Part shown: piece after piece, positions 615 through 45,708 of the stretch
How the letters are laid out: every line of letters begins with the position of its first letter
Position numbering within the stretch: the stretch's first letter is position 1
Source: an uncultured delta proteobacterium
Lineage (GTDB): Bacteria > Desulfobacterota > Binatia > UBA9968
Direction: 5' to 3'
DNA length: 64,000 nt
Assembly (NCBI GenBank): GCA_963847445.1
Contig: CAWJZV010000034.1
Span: 192,001-256,000 of the forward strand
The notes under the pieces: generated by a model
What the model was told of the DNA's origin: nothing
What the model saw: only the letters and a program-made list of their open reading frames with translations
Database searches by the model: none
Program-made: the position numbers and the translations under genes

Positions 615-1202
615 TTACCGGGAAGGTTGTCCTCGTTCCGTAGCGGGCGGATTTTGACTCGTCGGCGGCCATCGCAGTGTCAGTGATTGATTCAGCAGCT
701 CGGTCAATTTTTTCTTTTGTTCGGCGTTGAGCAGCGCCTTGCCCTGCTCGATGGCGCGGATGCGGGCGATGCGCAGGTCGCTGCGGAGCTTTTCTTCCTC
801 GCGTATTTTCGCTTCAAGCTTGGCCATTTCCACTGGCTCGCTGTCGAGCAAGGTGGCGATATCAAGCTCCAGGATGCGCAAGTCCGCCTCATTGCGGATG
901 GTCAAGCGCTGGAAATTATCGCGCTGCTGCTCCAACCGGCGCACTTGATCCGCGGACAATCCCAGCGCCTCTTTGTTGTTGAGCATCTGGCTGATCACCG
1001 GGCGGTCTTCGCGCGCGCCGCGCGGCCCGACGCGCTCCCACAGCCGCCCGCCCCACTCGTGCAACGCGCGTTGAAAGCGCTCCCAGGCATCGGACAGTTC
1101 TTCCGGCACCGGCGGCTTCGACCGTTCCGGTTCGGCGCTCAAAGCGGGGATGGTGACGATCAACAGCAAGGCAAACGAACATAAAAAAAACCTACGTTGC
1201 AT
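615..1202 (-). CDS. Spy/CpxP-family periplasmic chaperone-like protein
   Basis: Signal peptide from MQRRFF; LGLSADQ...LNAEQKKKL LTxxQ-like repeats; helical. Confidence 0.75.
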   Translation of the reverse strand: MQRRFFLCSFALLLIVTIPALSAEPERSKPPVPEELSDAWERFQRALHEWGGRLWERVGPRGAREDRPVISQMLNNKEALGLSADQVRRLEQQRDNFQRLTIRNEADLRILELDIATLLDSEPVEMAKLEAKIREEEKLRSDLRIARIRAIEQGKALLNAEQKKKLTELLNQSLTLRWPPTSQNPPATERGQPSR

Positions 1203-1333
1203 AACGCCTCCAGTGAGCCAATTCAGCAGGGACTGGCAAAAAGTAAAGCTCCGCCACGTCTCGAAGTCAACGCAGTGGGTCATGGCACGGCGGGCCAACG
1301 ATGAGGCGAGTTGTCATAGCAATAATTTCGCTC

Positions 1334-1362
1334 TTGACATTGGCACCGCGCAGTCGTAGAGC
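1334..1362 (+). promoter_or_regulatory. sigma70-type promoter upstream of the structured RNA
   Basis: Perfect TTGACA (1334-1339), 17-nt spacer, weak -10 TAGAGC (1357-1362). Confidence 0.5.
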
Positions 1363-1368
1363 GGTAGC

Positions 1369-1770
1369 AGATTCACTGAACGCCGCCAGGCGTAGGGGCG
1401 AGTGAGTCGCATAATGCAGTGAAGCCCCAAGGTGTGAAAGGAGGTCTTTGCTATGCAAGACGGAAATCCACCGAACCACGTATGCCCGCTGTTTGCGGGC
1501 GGCTCCCGACCCGGACATCTACCCGTCTCACGCAGCGGCGTTAACTAACCGGACCTCAACTAAATTGCCTGAAGGCAAATCGTCGCTCTAGCGACATAGT
1601 GAGGAAGGTCGTAGGTAGTATGACACGCGGAGGTCACTCACGTGAGTGCGTTCCGGATCAAGCCCATCGAACCGTTGGCAGCGGGAGTAAGGGCAAATTA
1701 AATAGCGCAGTTAAGCGCGCGAAACGCGCCGCAAGGGCGTCCTTCCGTGAAGGACGCCCTTGTCATTCTT
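1369..1770 (+). ncRNA. Candidate large structured ncRNA, unassigned family
   Basis: More than 12 helices in two multibranch domains plus two long-range pairings; no credible ORF; flanked by promoter and terminator. Confidence 0.65.
1732..1770 (+). terminator. Intrinsic terminator-like hairpin
   Basis: 14-bp perfect stem CAAGGGCGTCCTTC/GAAGGACGCCCTTG followed by TCATTCTT. Confidence 0.7.
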
Positions 1771-1837
1771 AGCGCGCCATTCAGTTTCGGTCCGGCAATG
1801 GAACGGGTTAAACTAGCAAACGTTTGGGGAGAAGATC

Positions 1838-2324
1838 ATGATAGAAGCGGATCATCGTTATCTACGCTATGCCTTGATGGTCGCCGAACGTGCCCGCGAC
1901 CATGGCGACCGCCCGTTTGGCGCGGTGCTGGTGAGCAATCGCGGCAGAATTTTGATCGAGGCGGAAAACGCCAAACACGCCACTCATGATTGCACGAGCC
2001 ACGCCGAAACCAGGCTGCTCGCCCAGGCGTCGCGGCAGTTTCCCCGCCACCTGCTGGTCCATTGCACGCTTTACGTAAATGCCGAGCCCTGCCCAATGTG
2101 CGCCGGGGCGATATTCTGGAGCGGTGTGGGCCGCGTCGTCTTCGGTCTCAGCAACGCCCGCCTGAGACAGCTGGTCGGACAGCGTTCGGAGCAACTATTC
2201 GAACATTGCGCCGAGGTGCTCGCCGAGGCACGCACACGTCGAAGTGGTGGGACCCTTGTTCGAAGAAGAAGCGGCCCAGGCGTTTAGAGAAGGGCTCGTC
2301 TTGCCAACAGTTCTGGCACAGTGA
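1838..2324 (+). CDS. Nucleoside deaminase (cytidine/guanine deaminase-like); frameshift near the 3' end
   Basis: PFGAVLV, HAE and EPCPMC zinc motifs; C-terminus EVVGPLFEEEA continues in another frame. Confidence 0.85.
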
Positions 2325-2414
2325 TTTTGTTCACCGGGCAGGGAGCCACGGATCCATAGTCGGCTTAGCGCAACGACAGGCGTTGACGGTTCGCGCAATC
2401 ACAGGGAGGGAACC

Positions 2415-3236
2415 ATGCAAATCATCACGATCTACCAGGGCGCTTCAGGCAGCGGCGAAGAGTTGGCCGAGAGCGTGGCGCAGGCGTTGGGTTACGGCCG
2501 CGTCGACCGCGAAGTGCTGGTTCAGGCAAGTTTGCAGTACGGCATCCCGGAATCCAAACTCAATGAAATCGTCGAGCGCGAACCGAGCTGGTGGGCGACC
2601 TTCACGCGCAATCTCGATCCTTATCGAATCGCGTTACAGGCGGCGTTCTGCGAGATCGCCCGCGATCATGGCATCGTCTATCACGGTCATCTGGGCCATG
2701 AACTCATCCCGAAATTTCAGCATGTTCTCAAAGTTTTGCTCACGGCACCGATGGAAATGCGCGTCGAGCAAGTGCGCGCGCGCCACAAGCTCAATGAAAT
2801 AGCCGCGCGGCGTTACGTCGACGAAGTCGACAAGGCGCGCACGCGCCGGCTGCAAGGCATGTTCGGCACCGATTGGCGCGATGCCAGCCGCTACGATTTG
2901 GTGGTCAATCTTGGCCATATGAGCGTGGCGACGGCAAAGCAGTTGATCGTGGCTGCGGCCCACGCGCCGGACTATCAGATGACCCGAGCATCGAAGCAGG
3001 CGTTTGAAAACTTTGCGCTGGCATCGCGAGTTCGCGCCACCTTAGCGCTCGCTGAAGACCTGTCCCAGGTGCGGGTCGAGGTCGATGCCAATGAGGGCGA
3101 TATTCTCGTCAGCGGCACTGTGCCGGAATGGATTACCGCACGGCAAGTCGTCACCCACATCGAAGCGATTCCTGGCATCAAGCAGGTGCAGGCGGATCTC
3201 ACGACGCTGCCGTCCAGCCTCGGAATGACCAGTTGA
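2415..3236 (+). CDS. Cytidylate-kinase-like family protein with C-terminal BON domain
   Basis: IITI..GASGSG, YDLVVN; C-terminal VEVDANEGDILVSGTV...IPGIKQV. Confidence 0.8.
   Translation: MQIITIYQGASGSGEELAESVAQALGYGRVDREVLVQASLQYGIPESKLNEIVEREPSWWATFTRNLDPYRIALQAAFCEIARDHGIVYHGHLGHELIPKFQHVLKVLLTAPMEMRVEQVRARHKLNEIAARRYVDEVDKARTRRLQGMFGTDWRDASRYDLVVNLGHMSVATAKQLIVAAAHAPDYQMTRASKQAFENFALASRVRATLALAEDLSQVRVEVDANEGDILVSGTVPEWITARQVVTHIEAIPGIKQVQADLTTLPSSLGMTS

Positions 3237-45631: not shown

Positions 45632-45708
<77 letters not shown>

What the first reader, a model, noticed from the sequence alone, without database searches (positions are those of the whole stretch)
1334..1770. Candidate large (~400 nt) pseudoknotted non-coding RNA with its own promoter and terminator
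Seen in sequence: an ORF-poor interval bounded by TTGACA-N17 and a 14-bp terminator that can be almost entirely paired. Domain 1 is closed by AACGCCGC(1379-86)/GCGGCGTT(1535-42) and contains GGGGC/GCCCC (1395/1424), GGTG/CACC (1431/1469), GTCTT.GC/GCAAGAC (1444/1455) and GCCCGC/GCGGGC (1484/1495). Domain 2 is closed by TAACT/AGTTA (1542/1709) and contains CCGGA/TCCGG (1549/1652), CCTCA.CTA/TAGTGAGG (1554/1597), TTGCC/GGCAA, GTCGC/GCGAC, GTCGTA/TATGAC (1608/1619), CACTC/GAGTG and GCCC/GGGC (1662/1691). Two otherwise unpaired segments of domain 1 match domain-2 loops exactly: CTACC(1519-23) with loop GGTAG(1614-18), and CTCCCG(1503-08) with CGGGAG(1682-87). That gives two inter-domain pseudoknots. 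TTCACTG(1372)/CAGTGAA(1417) is a further or alternative pairing. This complexity is like ribozymes or OLE/GOLLD/raiA-class RNAs, but I recognise no RNase P, tmRNA, SRP, 6S, intron or riboswitch signature. Inference: an undescribed structured RNA, or less likely a long attenuator for the downstream deaminase.
Basis: partly seen in the sequence, partly recalled or inferred. Interest (0 to 1): 0.88.

Follow-up and report, generated by a model that had tools for sequence, protein, structure and literature searches.

The report
Structured RNA carrying a tiny gene
This is a real, expressed, roughly 400-base RNA gene of an uncultured soil-bacterial lineage that folds into a conserved shape and also carries a tiny proline-containing reading frame, and it matches no described RNA or protein family.

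Summary
The interval 1334-1771 is a real, self-contained gene. It has an invariant TTGACA box, a covarying terminator, and RNA contigs from four metatranscriptome studies that lie wholly inside it. Homologs occur in 57 of 123 genomes of the order (families f1 and f2, not f3). None were found in 17 other families of the class.

No Rfam family reaches its gathering score. Both domain-closing helices and both inter-domain pseudoknots fail in homologs.

It follows a perfect Shine-Dalgarno sequence, and 93 of 97 unique homologs keep SD, ATG, Pro-Pro at codons 6-7, and exactly 12 nt to a conserved GCCCGC.

The supported fold has these parts:
- a 5' H-type pseudoknot, which is lineage-specific
- a hairpin that sequesters the SD with the Thr-Pro-Pro codons
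- two long-range helices that tie the coding region to the 3' half
- a three-way junction right after the stop codon
- a small hairpin and the terminator

My best reading is a translation-gated, dual-function RNA. The function is unknown, and translation has not been shown.

The parts
1334..1362 (+). Promoter: -35 box TTGACA (1334-1339), 17-nt spacer, -10-like TAGAGC (1357-1362). The inferred start is near 1368-1371.
   Evidence: TTGACA is invariant in 60 of 60 aligned homologs, and a TA follows at a fixed distance. It is also present in distant members L140-L142. The consensus scan did not flag it because the -10 box is weak. RNA contigs begin at 1386-1392 in three studies.
1370..1428 (+). 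5' domain: helix H1 1370-1377/1401-1408, hairpin H2 1380-1384/1389-1393, and GGGGC 1395-1399 paired with GCCCC 1424-1428. Together they form an H-type pseudoknot.
   Evidence: On A2, H1 is 96.8% paired with 4 compensatory pairs. H2 is 92.9% paired with 3 compensatory pairs. The pseudoknot helix is 83.7% paired and mostly invariant. The domain is lineage-specific. It is replaced by another arrangement in some genera and absent in genus g23.
1431..1472 (+). Hairpin that sequesters the ribosome binding site. The SD AAGGAGG (1438-1444) has GGAG 1440-1443 paired with 1466-1469 (the Thr/Asn-Pro codons). GTCTT 1444-1448 pairs with AAGAC 1457-1461. The start codon 1453-1455 sits at the tip.
   Evidence: Helices 4-6 are 89-93% paired, with 4 compensatory pairs around the start codon. 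Searches agree.
1453..1548 (+). Small ORF of 31 codons plus stop (MQDGNPPNHVCPLFAGGSRPGHLPVSRSGVN). The conserved part is Met, four codons, Pro-Pro, four codons, then Pro-Leu-Ser/Phe-Ala-Gly.
   Evidence: Of 97 unique homologs, 93 keep SD + ATG + CCNCCN-N12-C[CG]N, with Pro-Pro at codons 6-7 in 91. In-frame indels occur in L103 and L124. The C-terminal part is read in different frames or truncated.
1485..1493 (+). 5' strand of long-range helix LR (CCCGCTGTT, codons 11-14).
   Evidence: It pairs with 1677-1685 at -16.8 kcal/mol in the window. It is complementary in nearly all lineages, with compensatory changes. Cognate partners fit better than non-cognate ones, with 0 of 5000 permutations as low.
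1677..1687 (+). 3' strand of LR and the conserved 3' motif (GGCAGCGGGAG; GACAGGCGGGA/C in most homologs).
1524..1556 (+). 5' strand of the long irregular helix P5. It covers the last eight codons, the stop codon and GACCT 1552-1556.
   Evidence: The duplex with 1606-1650 is -25.9 kcal/mol. The core GACCT/AGGTC is 94% paired with 3 compensatory pairs. For the extension, cognate energy is -18.5 against -14.5 non-cognate, with 0 of 5000 permutations as low.
1557..1605 (+). Three-way junction: strand CAAC-TAAA, hairpin P6 1565-1578 (TTGCC TGAA GGCAA), hairpin P7 1582-1595 (GTCGC TCTA GCGAC), and the purine strand ending in GAGGA.
   Evidence: P6 is 98% paired with 2-4 compensatory pairs. P7 is 92% paired with 3. 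This is the best conserved part of the RNA. Model R2 built on it finds 57 of 123 genomes of the order.
1606..1650 (+). 3' strand of P5 (AGGTC 1606-1610 and its extension).
1714..1728 (+). Small GC hairpin (GCGCGCGAAACGCGC) just upstream of the terminator.
   Evidence: It is 82% paired on A3, with 2 compensatory pairs. The alignment is off by one in some lineages. It is also present in distant members.
1733..1771 (+). Intrinsic terminator: stem 1733-1745/1749-1761, then a T-rich tail.
   Evidence: The stem has 13 pairs, 96% paired, and 12 pairs carry compensatory changes. RNA contigs end at 1708-1745 and none goes beyond.

Best explanation
Shown:
- Positions 1334-1771 are an independent transcription unit that makes an RNA of about 400 nt. 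It is conserved in one order of uncultured soil and sediment bacteria and is present in environmental RNA libraries.
- The RNA has a conserved, covarying architecture.
- It carries a short ORF behind a perfect Shine-Dalgarno sequence.

Inferred mechanism: the RNA is gated by translation, so folding and translation exclude each other.
- In the folded state the SD is paired with the Thr-Pro-Pro codons.
- Codons 11-14 are paired with a motif about 190 nt downstream (helix LR).
- The last codons and the stop codon form the stem (P5) that closes a three-way junction.
- A ribosome that initiates meets an invariant Pro-Pro motif. PPG, PPD and PPN are recalled to be strong pausing motifs that depend on EF-P.
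- That motif lies exactly 12 nt before LR, so a paused ribosome would stand with its front edge at that helix.
- If the ribosome moves on, it must unzip LR and, in most lineages, P5. This would remodel the 3' half: the junction, the GACAGGCGGGA motif and an A-rich linker.

I therefore read the ORF mainly as a cis-acting sensor of translation. It would switch the conformation, activity or lifetime of a trans-acting or protein-binding RNA. A peptide function may exist in addition, which would make it a dual-function RNA. The target of the 3' domain is unknown.
For: Independent gene:
- TTGACA is invariant in 60 of 60 homologs and the terminator covaries.
- Among 110 unique loci, 92 have a called downstream ORF. 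It is on the opposite strand in 57 and co-oriented in 35, and it falls into many unrelated families.
- RNA contigs from 4 studies lie wholly inside 1386-1745. None covers 1000-1385 or 1746-2500. One has depth 36.7 in a run of only 22 million letters.

Structure:
- On A2, 92.6% of cells pair, against 34-43% when the partners are slid. Thirteen pairs are compensatory.
- On A3, 93.7% pair against 40-55% slid, with 24 compensatory pairs.
- On A4, 90.6% pair against 22-55% slid.
- LR and the P5 extension fit cognate partners better than non-cognate ones (0 of 5000 permutations each). Two control regions and the local hairpin do not.

ORF:
- 93 of 97 unique homologs keep SD + ATG + Pro-Pro + 12 nt.
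- The third positions of both Pro codons vary while the first two never do.
- Indels in L103 and L124 are in frame.
- Synonymous GCG>GCT and GCG>GCA changes keep Ala but break the local hairpin.
- Genus g23 lacks the anti-SD pairing but keeps Pro-Pro.

Sensor rather than peptide:
- Two lineages stop right after PPG, giving 8 codons. Three stop at 18 codons.
- The C-terminus is read in different frames.

Novelty:
- No Rfam family reaches gathering score in the window or in 19 diverse loci.
- The peptide matches no Pfam or NCBIfam family.
Against: - Translation is not shown. No ribosome profiling or proteomics was available.
- The coding signature is weak. Diversity by codon position is 0.297/0.258/0.363. 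The synonymous share is 20.4% in frame, against 16.7% and 16.4% in the shifted frames.
- Most conserved codons coincide with paired nucleotides. CUCC(A)CC is the anti-SD and GCCCGC is the LR strand, so RNA constraints alone explain much of the 'peptide' conservation.
- One homolog (L032) lacks the SD and part of the ATG. One paralog (L117) has lost Pro-Pro.
- No target or output of the proposed switch is known.
- The pausing strength of PPG/PPD/PPN is recalled, not tested here.
- Contigs cannot give the strand, the ends or the level of the RNA.
- The distribution is patchy. Only 11 of 30 genomes of the own genus have it, and it is missing from genomes that are 98-100% complete. That fits an accessory element better than a core regulator.
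- Kin are not independent, so the permutation counts overstate significance.
Confidence: 0.5

Rival explanations
1. This is an ordinary mRNA for a small protein. The roughly 30-residue peptide, with its conserved N-terminal motif MxDxTPPxxxxPLSAGG, is the effector. The RNA structure only provides tight translational control and a long half-life.
For: - SD, ATG and frame are conserved in 93 of 97 homologs, and 88 of 93 ORFs have 24 codons or more.
- Indels are in frame, and synonymous changes break the local hairpin but keep Ala.
- Ala-Gly-Gly lies outside the LR helix yet is conserved.
Against: - The ORF is cut to 8 codons in L126 and L130 and to 18 in L007, L074 and L082. The C-terminal third is read in different frames.
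- The most conserved nucleotides are the loops and junction strands of the three-way junction in the 3' untranslated part. A stabilising UTR does not explain that.
- The peptide matches no protein family.
Confidence: 0.2
2. This is a purely non-coding RNA. The SD-like sequence and the AUG are structural or binding elements, for example a 30S or protein decoy, and no peptide is made.
For: - The SD is sequestered in a covarying hairpin.
- Nearly all conserved codons are base-paired nucleotides.
- The coding signature is weak.
- L032 lacks the SD and part of the start codon.
- Three SD-like AGGA motifs recur in the RNA.
Against: - The ATG sits at the tip of a hairpin, 5-7 nt after a perfect SD, and is kept in 93 of 97 homologs.
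- Pro-Pro is kept in g23, where the anti-SD pairing is absent.
- Indels are in frame.
- The first 8 codons carry no in-frame stop in any of the 93.
Confidence: 0.1
3. This is the toxin mRNA of a type I toxin-antitoxin-like accessory module: a highly structured, translationally inert small-ORF mRNA, activated by processing and controlled by an antisense RNA.
For: - The distribution is patchy even within one genus, with 1-2 copies per genome and variable genomic sites.
- It has its own promoter and terminator, a sequestered SD, and long-range pairing of the coding region.
- From recall, and from the listing and abstract of PMC5066626 only, these are traits of dinQ, hok and tisB mRNAs.
Against: - The peptide is hydrophilic, rich in Pro, Gly and Ser, with no membrane helix.
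- Its length and C-terminus are not conserved.
- No conserved antisense promoter was found. The only minus-strand promoter-like site in the window (1438-1411) is not conserved in clade B (read).
- The RNA is abundant in environmental RNA libraries.
Confidence: 0.07
4. This is a cis-acting leader or attenuator. A leader peptide with proline codons controls read-through of the terminator into the downstream deaminase and cytidylate-kinase-like/BON genes.
For: - In clade A the deaminase follows in the same orientation about 70 nt after the terminator.
- In L010 the 3' third and the terminator are missing, and the element runs straight into the BON-domain gene.
- It resembles the recalled proline-codon leader ORF mgtL.
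Against: - The downstream ORF is convergent in 57 of 92 loci that have one. The co-oriented deaminase occurs in only 8 loci.
- Neighbours are unrelated across lineages.
- RNA contigs stop before or within the terminator and do not cover the deaminase.
Confidence: 0.05
5. One reading: two domains closed by AACGCCGC/GCGGCGTT and TAACT/AGTTA, joined by two inter-domain pseudoknots, in a ribozyme-like non-coding RNA.
For: All these segments are complementary in the window itself and in its closest relatives in clade A.
Against: - In 60 homologs these helices pair in only 7-28 sequences at two or more of their positions, and none shows compensation.
- Competing helices (H2, LR, P5) do covary.
Confidence: 0.03

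Closest known systems
Dual-function bacterial sRNAs (RNAIII/delta-hemolysin, SgrS/SgrT, SR1/SR1P, AzuCR/AzuC); recalled, not tested by sequence
   Same: It is a stand-alone transcript of a few hundred nt with its own promoter and terminator. It has conserved RNA structure outside the ORF, plus a small ORF of 30-45 codons or fewer.
   Different: There is no sequence or Rfam relationship. Here the ORF is locked into two long-range helices with the 3' domain, and only its first 8-17 codons are conserved. No base-pairing target is known.
Leader ORFs rich in proline codons in the Salmonella mgtA and mgtCBR leaders (mgtL, mgtP); recalled
   Same: A short ORF with conserved Pro codons lies inside a structured RNA, and the ribosome's position is thought to decide between alternative pairings.
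   Different: Those are 5' leaders of downstream genes. This RNA ends at its own terminator, and its neighbours vary or are convergent. No homology was detected.
Type I toxin mRNAs (hok, tisB, dinQ; dinQ paper PMC5066626 seen as search listing and abstract only)
   Same: It is a small ORF in a highly folded mRNA. The SD is sequestered, mutually exclusive structures exist, the coding region pairs over long range, and it occurs as an accessory, patchy gene in one or more copies.
   Different: The peptide is hydrophilic and poorly conserved beyond 17 residues. No antisense partner was found, and the RNA appears abundant in the environment.
Large structured bacterial RNAs of unknown function (OLE, GOLLD, ROOL, raiA, HEARO) in Rfam
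   Same: It is a complex, conserved, multi-helix fold with a pseudoknot and a multi-way junction. It was found by comparative analysis and is abundant in RNA libraries.
   Different: None of these families matches. They have no conserved translated ORF. This RNA is restricted to one order of bacteria.
tmRNA
   Same: It is a structured RNA of similar size with an internal short reading frame flanked by pseudoknots or helices.
   Different: tmRNA has a tRNA-like domain and no SD or AUG. Rfam does not match here. This ORF has a canonical SD and ATG.

Membership tests
Any Rfam 15 family (RNase P, tmRNA, SRP, 6S, riboswitches, OLE, GOLLD, ROOL, raiA and the rest) | A covariance-model score at or above the family's gathering threshold | tested here: not met
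   The whole window gave only a tRNA at 45633-45705. The region 1200-1900 at E up to 10 gave 5 chance-level matches. The best was DUF3577 at 18.2 bits, against a gathering score of 42.6. Nineteen diverse homologous loci gave 0 matches.
Riboswitch or cis-regulatory leader | A fixed position upstream of, and co-oriented with, the regulated gene or genes across homologs | tested here: not met
   Of 92 loci with a called downstream ORF, it is convergent in 57 and co-oriented in 35. The families vary. The element has its own covarying terminator.
Riboswitch or cis-regulatory leader | A conserved aptamer domain present in all members | tested here: not met
   The 5' pseudoknot domain covaries. However, it is replaced in some genera and absent in g23. 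Model R1 finds 45 of 90 family genomes, while the junction model R2 finds 54 of 89 and also hits f2.
Dual-function sRNA (a functional kind, not a homology family) | An independent small transcript with its own promoter and terminator | tested here: met
Dual-function sRNA | An ORF that is actually translated | not testable with these tools
   Only indirect support exists. SD + ATG + Pro-Pro are kept in 93 of 97 homologs, indels are in frame, and the codon signature is weak.
Dual-function sRNA | An RNA activity separate from coding, such as base-pairing with targets or protein binding | not testable with these tools
   This is inferred only from the strong conservation of loops and junction strands in the untranslated three-way junction and of the 3' motif.
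Type I toxin-antitoxin toxin mRNA | A small hydrophobic, membrane-active peptide | tested here: not met
   The peptides are rich in Pro, Gly, Ser and charged residues, with no hydrophobic stretch.
Type I toxin-antitoxin toxin mRNA | A conserved antisense or adjacent antitoxin RNA gene | tested here: inconclusive
   The only minus-strand promoter-like site is not conserved in clade B, by reading. The contig data carry no strand information.
Ribosome-arrest or leader peptide (SecM, MifM, TnaC, mgtL type) | A conserved arrest motif whose ribosome footprint overlaps a regulatory RNA helix | tested here: inconclusive
   The geometry fits. Pro-Pro is invariant and lies exactly 12 nt before helix LR in 93 of 97 homologs. 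Pausing itself could not be tested.
Ribosome-arrest or leader peptide (SecM, MifM, TnaC, mgtL type) | A downstream gene whose expression is the output | tested here: not met
   There is no conserved downstream gene within or after the transcript.

The most novel reading that the evidence does not exclude
This could be a new class of bacterial riboregulator: a stand-alone RNA whose activity is switched by translation of its own internal mini-ORF. A ribosome loaded at a self-inhibited SD would pause at an invariant di-proline exactly one footprint ahead of a long-range helix. Whether it proceeds would depend on EF-P, prolyl-tRNA or general translation capacity. That would decide whether the three-way-junction domain stays folded or is released. 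The RNA would thus report the cell's translational state to an unknown trans target, in genomic neighbourhoods that often hold apparent stress-protein genes.
Probability: 0.25. Interest if true: 0.9.

Novelty: new variant of a known kind. Interest (0 to 1): 0.74.

Why it matters
If the reading holds, this is an undescribed RNA family that joins two regulatory principles usually seen apart. One is the trans-acting structured RNA. The other is the leader peptide that senses ribosome movement.

- **Tractable size:** the conserved core is about 330 nt.
- **Ready model:** a covariation-supported secondary structure exists, and lineage variants act as natural mutants. Examples are the 8-codon and 18-codon ORFs, the lineage without the 5' domain, and the fusion to a BON-domain gene.
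- **Easy to detect:** the RNA appears abundant in soil, sediment and river metatranscriptomes, so it can be probed and followed in nature.
- **Annotation:** it marks a gene that protein-centred and Rfam-centred annotation both miss in a poorly known, uncultured lineage. The public genome titles of that lineage read Candidatus Binatia, Deltaproteobacteria or Syntrophobacter.
- **Method:** a long 'non-coding' candidate can hide a conserved mini-ORF, and helices seen in a single sequence can mislead.

Tried and rejected
- **Rfam:** I tried gathering and permissive thresholds on the window and on 19 homologs. Nothing matched.
- **Fold energy:** both strands score alike, so it does not separate them.
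- **Promoter/terminator scan:** it missed the real + strand signals and gave only minus-strand chance-like sites.
both closing helices, both pseudoknots, CCGGA/TCCGG, GCCC/GGGC and CACTC/GAGTG were tested on 60 homologs and rejected as conserved pairs. My first run used coordinates off by one for H1 and H2. In one search my helper mis-placed GTCGC/GCGAC and GTCGTA/TATGAC. Both were redone.
- **All-against-all column-pair scan:** it was noisy because there are few clades. I used it only as a lead.
- **Consensus and single-sequence MFE folds:** they disagreed in the variable region 1625-1700. I give no model for 1651-1676 or 1688-1713.
- **Local hairpin 1484-1500:** it is complementary nearly everywhere but shows no covariation, and five lineages have uncompensated breaks. 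I treat it as at most an alternative or transient structure.
- **A second ORF from ATG 1619:** it is not conserved (alignment).
- **SD pairing with GGACCTC 1551-1557:** it is invariant, so it is uninformative. I did not pursue it.
- **Peptide look-ups:** Pfam, NCBIfam and the ESM Atlas returned nothing. The Atlas blank shows neither absence nor novelty.
- **Literature:** three searches found no description of this RNA. The terms were 'Binatia' with 'small RNA' (0 papers); 'Binatota' with five RNA and small-protein terms (none of the 10 listed papers holds 'Binatota'); and a dual-function/long-range/SD/pseudoknot set (6 papers, none on this RNA). I saw listings and abstracts only. I opened no paper and no supplementary file, so a mention there cannot be excluded.
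- **RNA coverage:** in the RNA runs, 1000-1385 and 1746-2500 had no cover. For contigs this is only a weak hint that the flanking genes are not co-transcribed.
- **Not used:** Complex prediction, structure prediction and the search of protein representatives. A 31-33-residue peptide would not reach significance in that library, and no binding claim is made.
Full report
**What is in the window**

Between a divergent gene for a periplasmic protein and a cytidine/dCMP-deaminase-family gene lies an interval with no long ORF.
- The upstream gene is on the minus strand and ends near 1202. Its only Pfam match, to Metal_resist, is below threshold.
- The deaminase gene is at 1838-2287.
- The interval carries TTGACA at 1334-1339, TAGAGC 17 nt later, and a 13-bp GC-rich stem at 1733-1761 with a T-containing tail.

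Chance is not excluded by the single sequence.
- The + strand folds at z = -3.13 and the minus strand at z = -3.35.
- The consensus scan flagged neither the promoter nor the terminator.

**Known families**

No Rfam 15 family reaches its gathering score, in the window or in 19 diverse homologous loci.
- The whole window gave only a tRNA at 45633.
- A permissive scan of 1200-1900 gave five chance-level matches.
- The 19 loci gave nothing.

**Homologs**

- BLAST found the element in 16 of 61 related genomes.
- An exact-pattern scan gave 7 loci in species-representative genomes and 60 metagenome contigs.
- The public titles of the genome records read Candidatus Binatia bacterium, Deltaproteobacteria bacterium or Syntrophobacter sp., and all are MAGs.
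- A profile search showed the full-length element in 85 loci, 77 of them unique. Later fetches raised this to 143 loci, 112 unique.
- Some genomes hold two copies.

**Distribution**

- A covariance model of the 5' domain (R1) hits 45 of 90 genomes of family f1, in 17 of 23 genera. It hits none of 5 f2 and 28 f3 genomes.
- A model of the three-way junction (R2) hits 57 of 123 genomes of the order: f1 54 of 89, f2 2 of 5, f3 0 of 28.
- In an even sample of the class, R2 hits 7 of 151 genomes, counting G000. All hits are in f1 (5 of 8) or f2 (1 of 2). None is in 17 other families.
- Within the window's own genus only 11 of 30 genomes have it. Several genomes that are 98-100% complete lack it.

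The element is therefore restricted to one order among the genomes searched, and it is patchy there.

**An independent gene**

- TTGACA is invariant in 60 of 60 aligned homologs.
- The terminator has 12 of 13 pairs with compensatory changes.
- Flanking genes differ between lineages. The commonest downstream neighbour is a convergent gene in 22 loci, which I take to encode a CBS-domain protein. That label comes from reading its sequence and was not checked by any search.
- The commonest upstream neighbours are a divergent gene of the same cluster as the window's periplasmic-protein gene (20 loci) and a divergent gene for a protein of about 412-431 residues (20 loci).
- The co-oriented deaminase follows in only 8 loci.
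- Of 92 loci with a called downstream ORF of at least 70 codons, it is on the opposite strand in 57.

This argues against a leader or attenuator.

**Expression**

- Twenty public runs hold the sequence, six of them RNA libraries from four studies.
- I laid four RNA runs, one per study, on window 1000-2500. Their contigs lie entirely inside the element: 1389-1708, 1386-1745, 1446-1723 and 1392-1659. A further contig belongs to a clade-B relative.
- Nothing covers the flanking genes.
- One run of only 22 million letters holds the RNA at depth 36.7.
- Contigs show presence and extent only. They do not give strand, exact ends or level, and DNA carry-over cannot be formally excluded. Even so, contigs of 268-361 nt that end inside the element in four studies fit a discrete, abundant transcript.

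At 1438-1444 stands AAGGAGG, and seven bases later ATG (1453). A 31-codon frame follows and ends at TAA 1546-1548.

Among 97 unique homologs that cover this region:
- 93 have an SD-like sequence, ATG, and the pattern CCN-CCN-N12-C[CG]N.
- Pro-Pro is at codons 6-7 in 91.
- 88 of the 93 ORFs have at least 24 codons, with a median of 33.

The conserved peptide core is M-x-[D/E]-x-[T/I/A]-P-P-x4-P-[L]-x-A-G-G.

Evidence for translation:
- Both Pro codons vary only at the third position.
- Length changes inside the conserved part are in frame: L103 is 3 nt shorter and L124 is 3 nt longer.
- GCG>GCT in L130 and GCG>GCA in L015 keep Ala while breaking a local hairpin.
- Genus g23 lacks the anti-SD pairing yet keeps Pro-Pro.

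Evidence against, or for weak peptide constraint:
- Diversity by codon position is only 0.297/0.258/0.363. The synonymous share is 20.4% in frame, against 16.7% and 16.4% in the shifted frames.
- Many conserved codons are also paired nucleotides.
- The C-terminal third is read in different frames in L001, L003 and L015. It is truncated to 18 codons in L007, L074 and L082, and to 8 codons in L126 and L130, where the stop follows PPG directly.
- L032 lacks the SD and part of the ATG. One paralog, L117, has lost Pro-Pro.

**Supported secondary structure, in window coordinates**

*5' domain*
- H1 is 1370-1377/1401-1408 and H2 is 1380-1384/1389-1393.
- GGGGC 1395-1399 pairs with GCCCC 1424-1428, forming an H-type pseudoknot with H1.

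*SD hairpin*
- The paired segments are 1431-1433/1470-1472, GGAG 1440-1443/1466-1469, GTCTT 1444-1448/AAGAC 1457-1461, and GC 1450-1451/1455-1456.
- The AUG sits at the tip.

*Support for these two parts*
- On 28 sequences these helices pair in 92.6% of cells, against 34-43% when the partners are slid.
- There are 13 compensatory pairs, and 0 of 500 shuffles reach the observed values.

*3' half*
- The P5 core is GACCT 1552-1556/AGGTC 1606-1610.
- P6 is 1565-1569/1574-1578 and P7 is 1582-1586/1591-1595.
- A small hairpin lies within 1714-1728, and the terminator follows.
- On 42 diverse sequences, 93.7% of cells pair against 40-55% slid, with 24 compensatory pairs.
- On the junction alone, 90.6% pair against 22-55% slid.

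**Two long-range helices**

MAFFT does not hold these in register, so I tested them by duplex energies.

*LR*
- LR pairs CCCGCTGTT 1485-1493 (codons 11-14) with GGCAGCGGG 1677-1685.
- The distal half changes in concert between lineages. Examples are CUGUC/GACAG, UGUCAG/CUGACA, CAGUCUG/CAGACUG, GCG/CGC and GUCG/CGAC (and the alignment).
- Cognate partners give -16.6 kcal/mol and non-cognate partners -15.1, with 0 of 5000 permutations as low.

*P5 extension*
- The extension pairs 1524-1551 (the last eight codons and the stop) with 1611-1650.
- Cognate partners give -18.5 kcal/mol and non-cognate -14.5, with 0 of 5000 permutations as low.

*Controls*
- Two control regions show no such effect.
- Neither does the local hairpin GCCCGC/GCGGGC, where 3994 of 5000 permutations are as low.
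- That local hairpin also carries uncompensated breaks in five lineages in which LR stays strong.

These permutation counts ignore relatedness. They are indications, not probabilities.

On 60 homologs, the following are paired in only a minority of sequences at two or more positions, and none shows compensation:
- the closing helix of 'domain 1'
- the closing helix of 'domain 2'
- CCGGA/TCCGG
- GCCC/GGGC
- CACTC/GAGTG
- both inter-domain pseudoknots

CGGGAG is the 3' strand of LR.

**Variation between lineages**

- The 5' pseudoknot domain is not universal. Several genera have a GGGG...CCCC helix around a GACG/CGUC hairpin, and some have a 5' hairpin with CCUCC in its loop.
- Genus g23 has almost no leader.
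- The universal core is SD, ATG, four codons, Pro-Pro, 12 nt, LR, P5 and junction, the 3' motif, the small hairpin, and the terminator.
- In L010 the 3' third and the terminator are missing, and the element abuts the gene for a cytidylate-kinase-like/BON protein.

**Mechanism**

*What is shown:* a conserved, expressed, independently transcribed structured RNA with a conserved mini-ORF whose ribosome binding site and coding region are base-paired.

*What I infer:* translation and the folded state exclude each other.
- The invariant Pro-Pro lies exactly 12 nt ahead of LR. A ribosome paused there, or terminating there in the 8-codon lineages, would stand at the entrance of LR.
- Further movement would unzip LR and P5 and remodel the 3' domain.
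- Only the first 8-17 codons are constrained, while the loops and junction strands of the untranslated junction are the best conserved nucleotides.
- I therefore favour a cis-acting, ribosome-sensing ORF inside an RNA whose 3' domain has its own, unknown, function.
- That PPG, PPD and PPN pause ribosomes without EF-P is recalled knowledge, not tested here.

*Neighbouring genes:* the window has a cytidylate-kinase-like/BON gene at 2415-3236. From reading the neighbour sequences, other loci appear to hold CBS-domain, CsbD-like, universal-stress-protein and RNA-binding-protein genes. Only the BON and deaminase labels come from a family search, so a stress context is merely suggested.

**Rivals**

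The rivals are a plain small-protein mRNA, a purely non-coding RNA, a type I toxin-like module and a cis leader. Each is weighed in its own section.

**Novelty**

I found no match in Rfam, Pfam or NCBIfam, and no description in three literature searches (listings and abstracts only). The general kind, an sRNA with a small ORF or a leader ORF with proline codons, is known. This architecture and family are not.

Noticed in passing
window 1838-2333: The deaminase gene downstream of the element is frameshifted near 2225-2245. Up to ...EHCAEVLA it reads like its homologs in L005 and L007. The conserved C-terminus (VEVVGPLFEEEAAQAFREGLVLPTVL) continues in another frame. This is either a pseudogene or an assembly indel.
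   Followed up: partly
L010 (G023:C521), element columns after the second junction hairpin: This natural variant has lost the 3' third of the RNA and its terminator. The element runs directly into the SD and start of the cytidylate-kinase-like/BON gene, with no deaminase between. It could show what the promoter and ORF do without the 3' domain.
   Followed up: partly
L016, L019, L058, L065 (clade C), between the SD and the ORF: An insertion of about 17-20 nt creates a 5- or 6-codon mini-ORF (MRRVV or MRRVMI). It also creates a second SD (GAGGAGGG) directly before the conserved ORF.
   Followed up: no
L126 and L130 (genus g20): The conserved ORF ends at a TAA right after Pro-Pro-Gly, giving 8 codons. 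The downstream nucleotides that elsewhere encode PLSAGG are kept as the strand of the long-range helix.
   Followed up: partly
loci around the element (clusters); window 2415-3236: Genes near the element recur across lineages. The window's cytidylate-kinase-like/BON gene is confirmed by Pfam. By reading their sequences only, others look like CBS-domain, LTXXQ/Spy-like, CsbD-like, universal-stress-protein and RRM-type RNA-binding-protein genes. This may mark a stress-gene neighbourhood.
   Followed up: no
window 45633-45705: This tRNA gene is the only Rfam match in the 64-kb window.
   Followed up: no
window 1688-1713 and homologous positions: An A-rich linker with repeated A-A-N triplets in clade B (AACAACAAGAAAAGAUAAA) lies between the 3' motif and the small hairpin. 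From recall, it resembles Hfq distal-face binding sites. I did not test it.
   Followed up: no
L017 (G005:C178), around 1500-1540: This is a remnant that keeps only the SD and the first seven codons (MQDGTPP, then a stop) of the element. It lies beside the same 412-residue upstream gene as in L012 and L015. It looks like a decayed copy.
   Followed up: no
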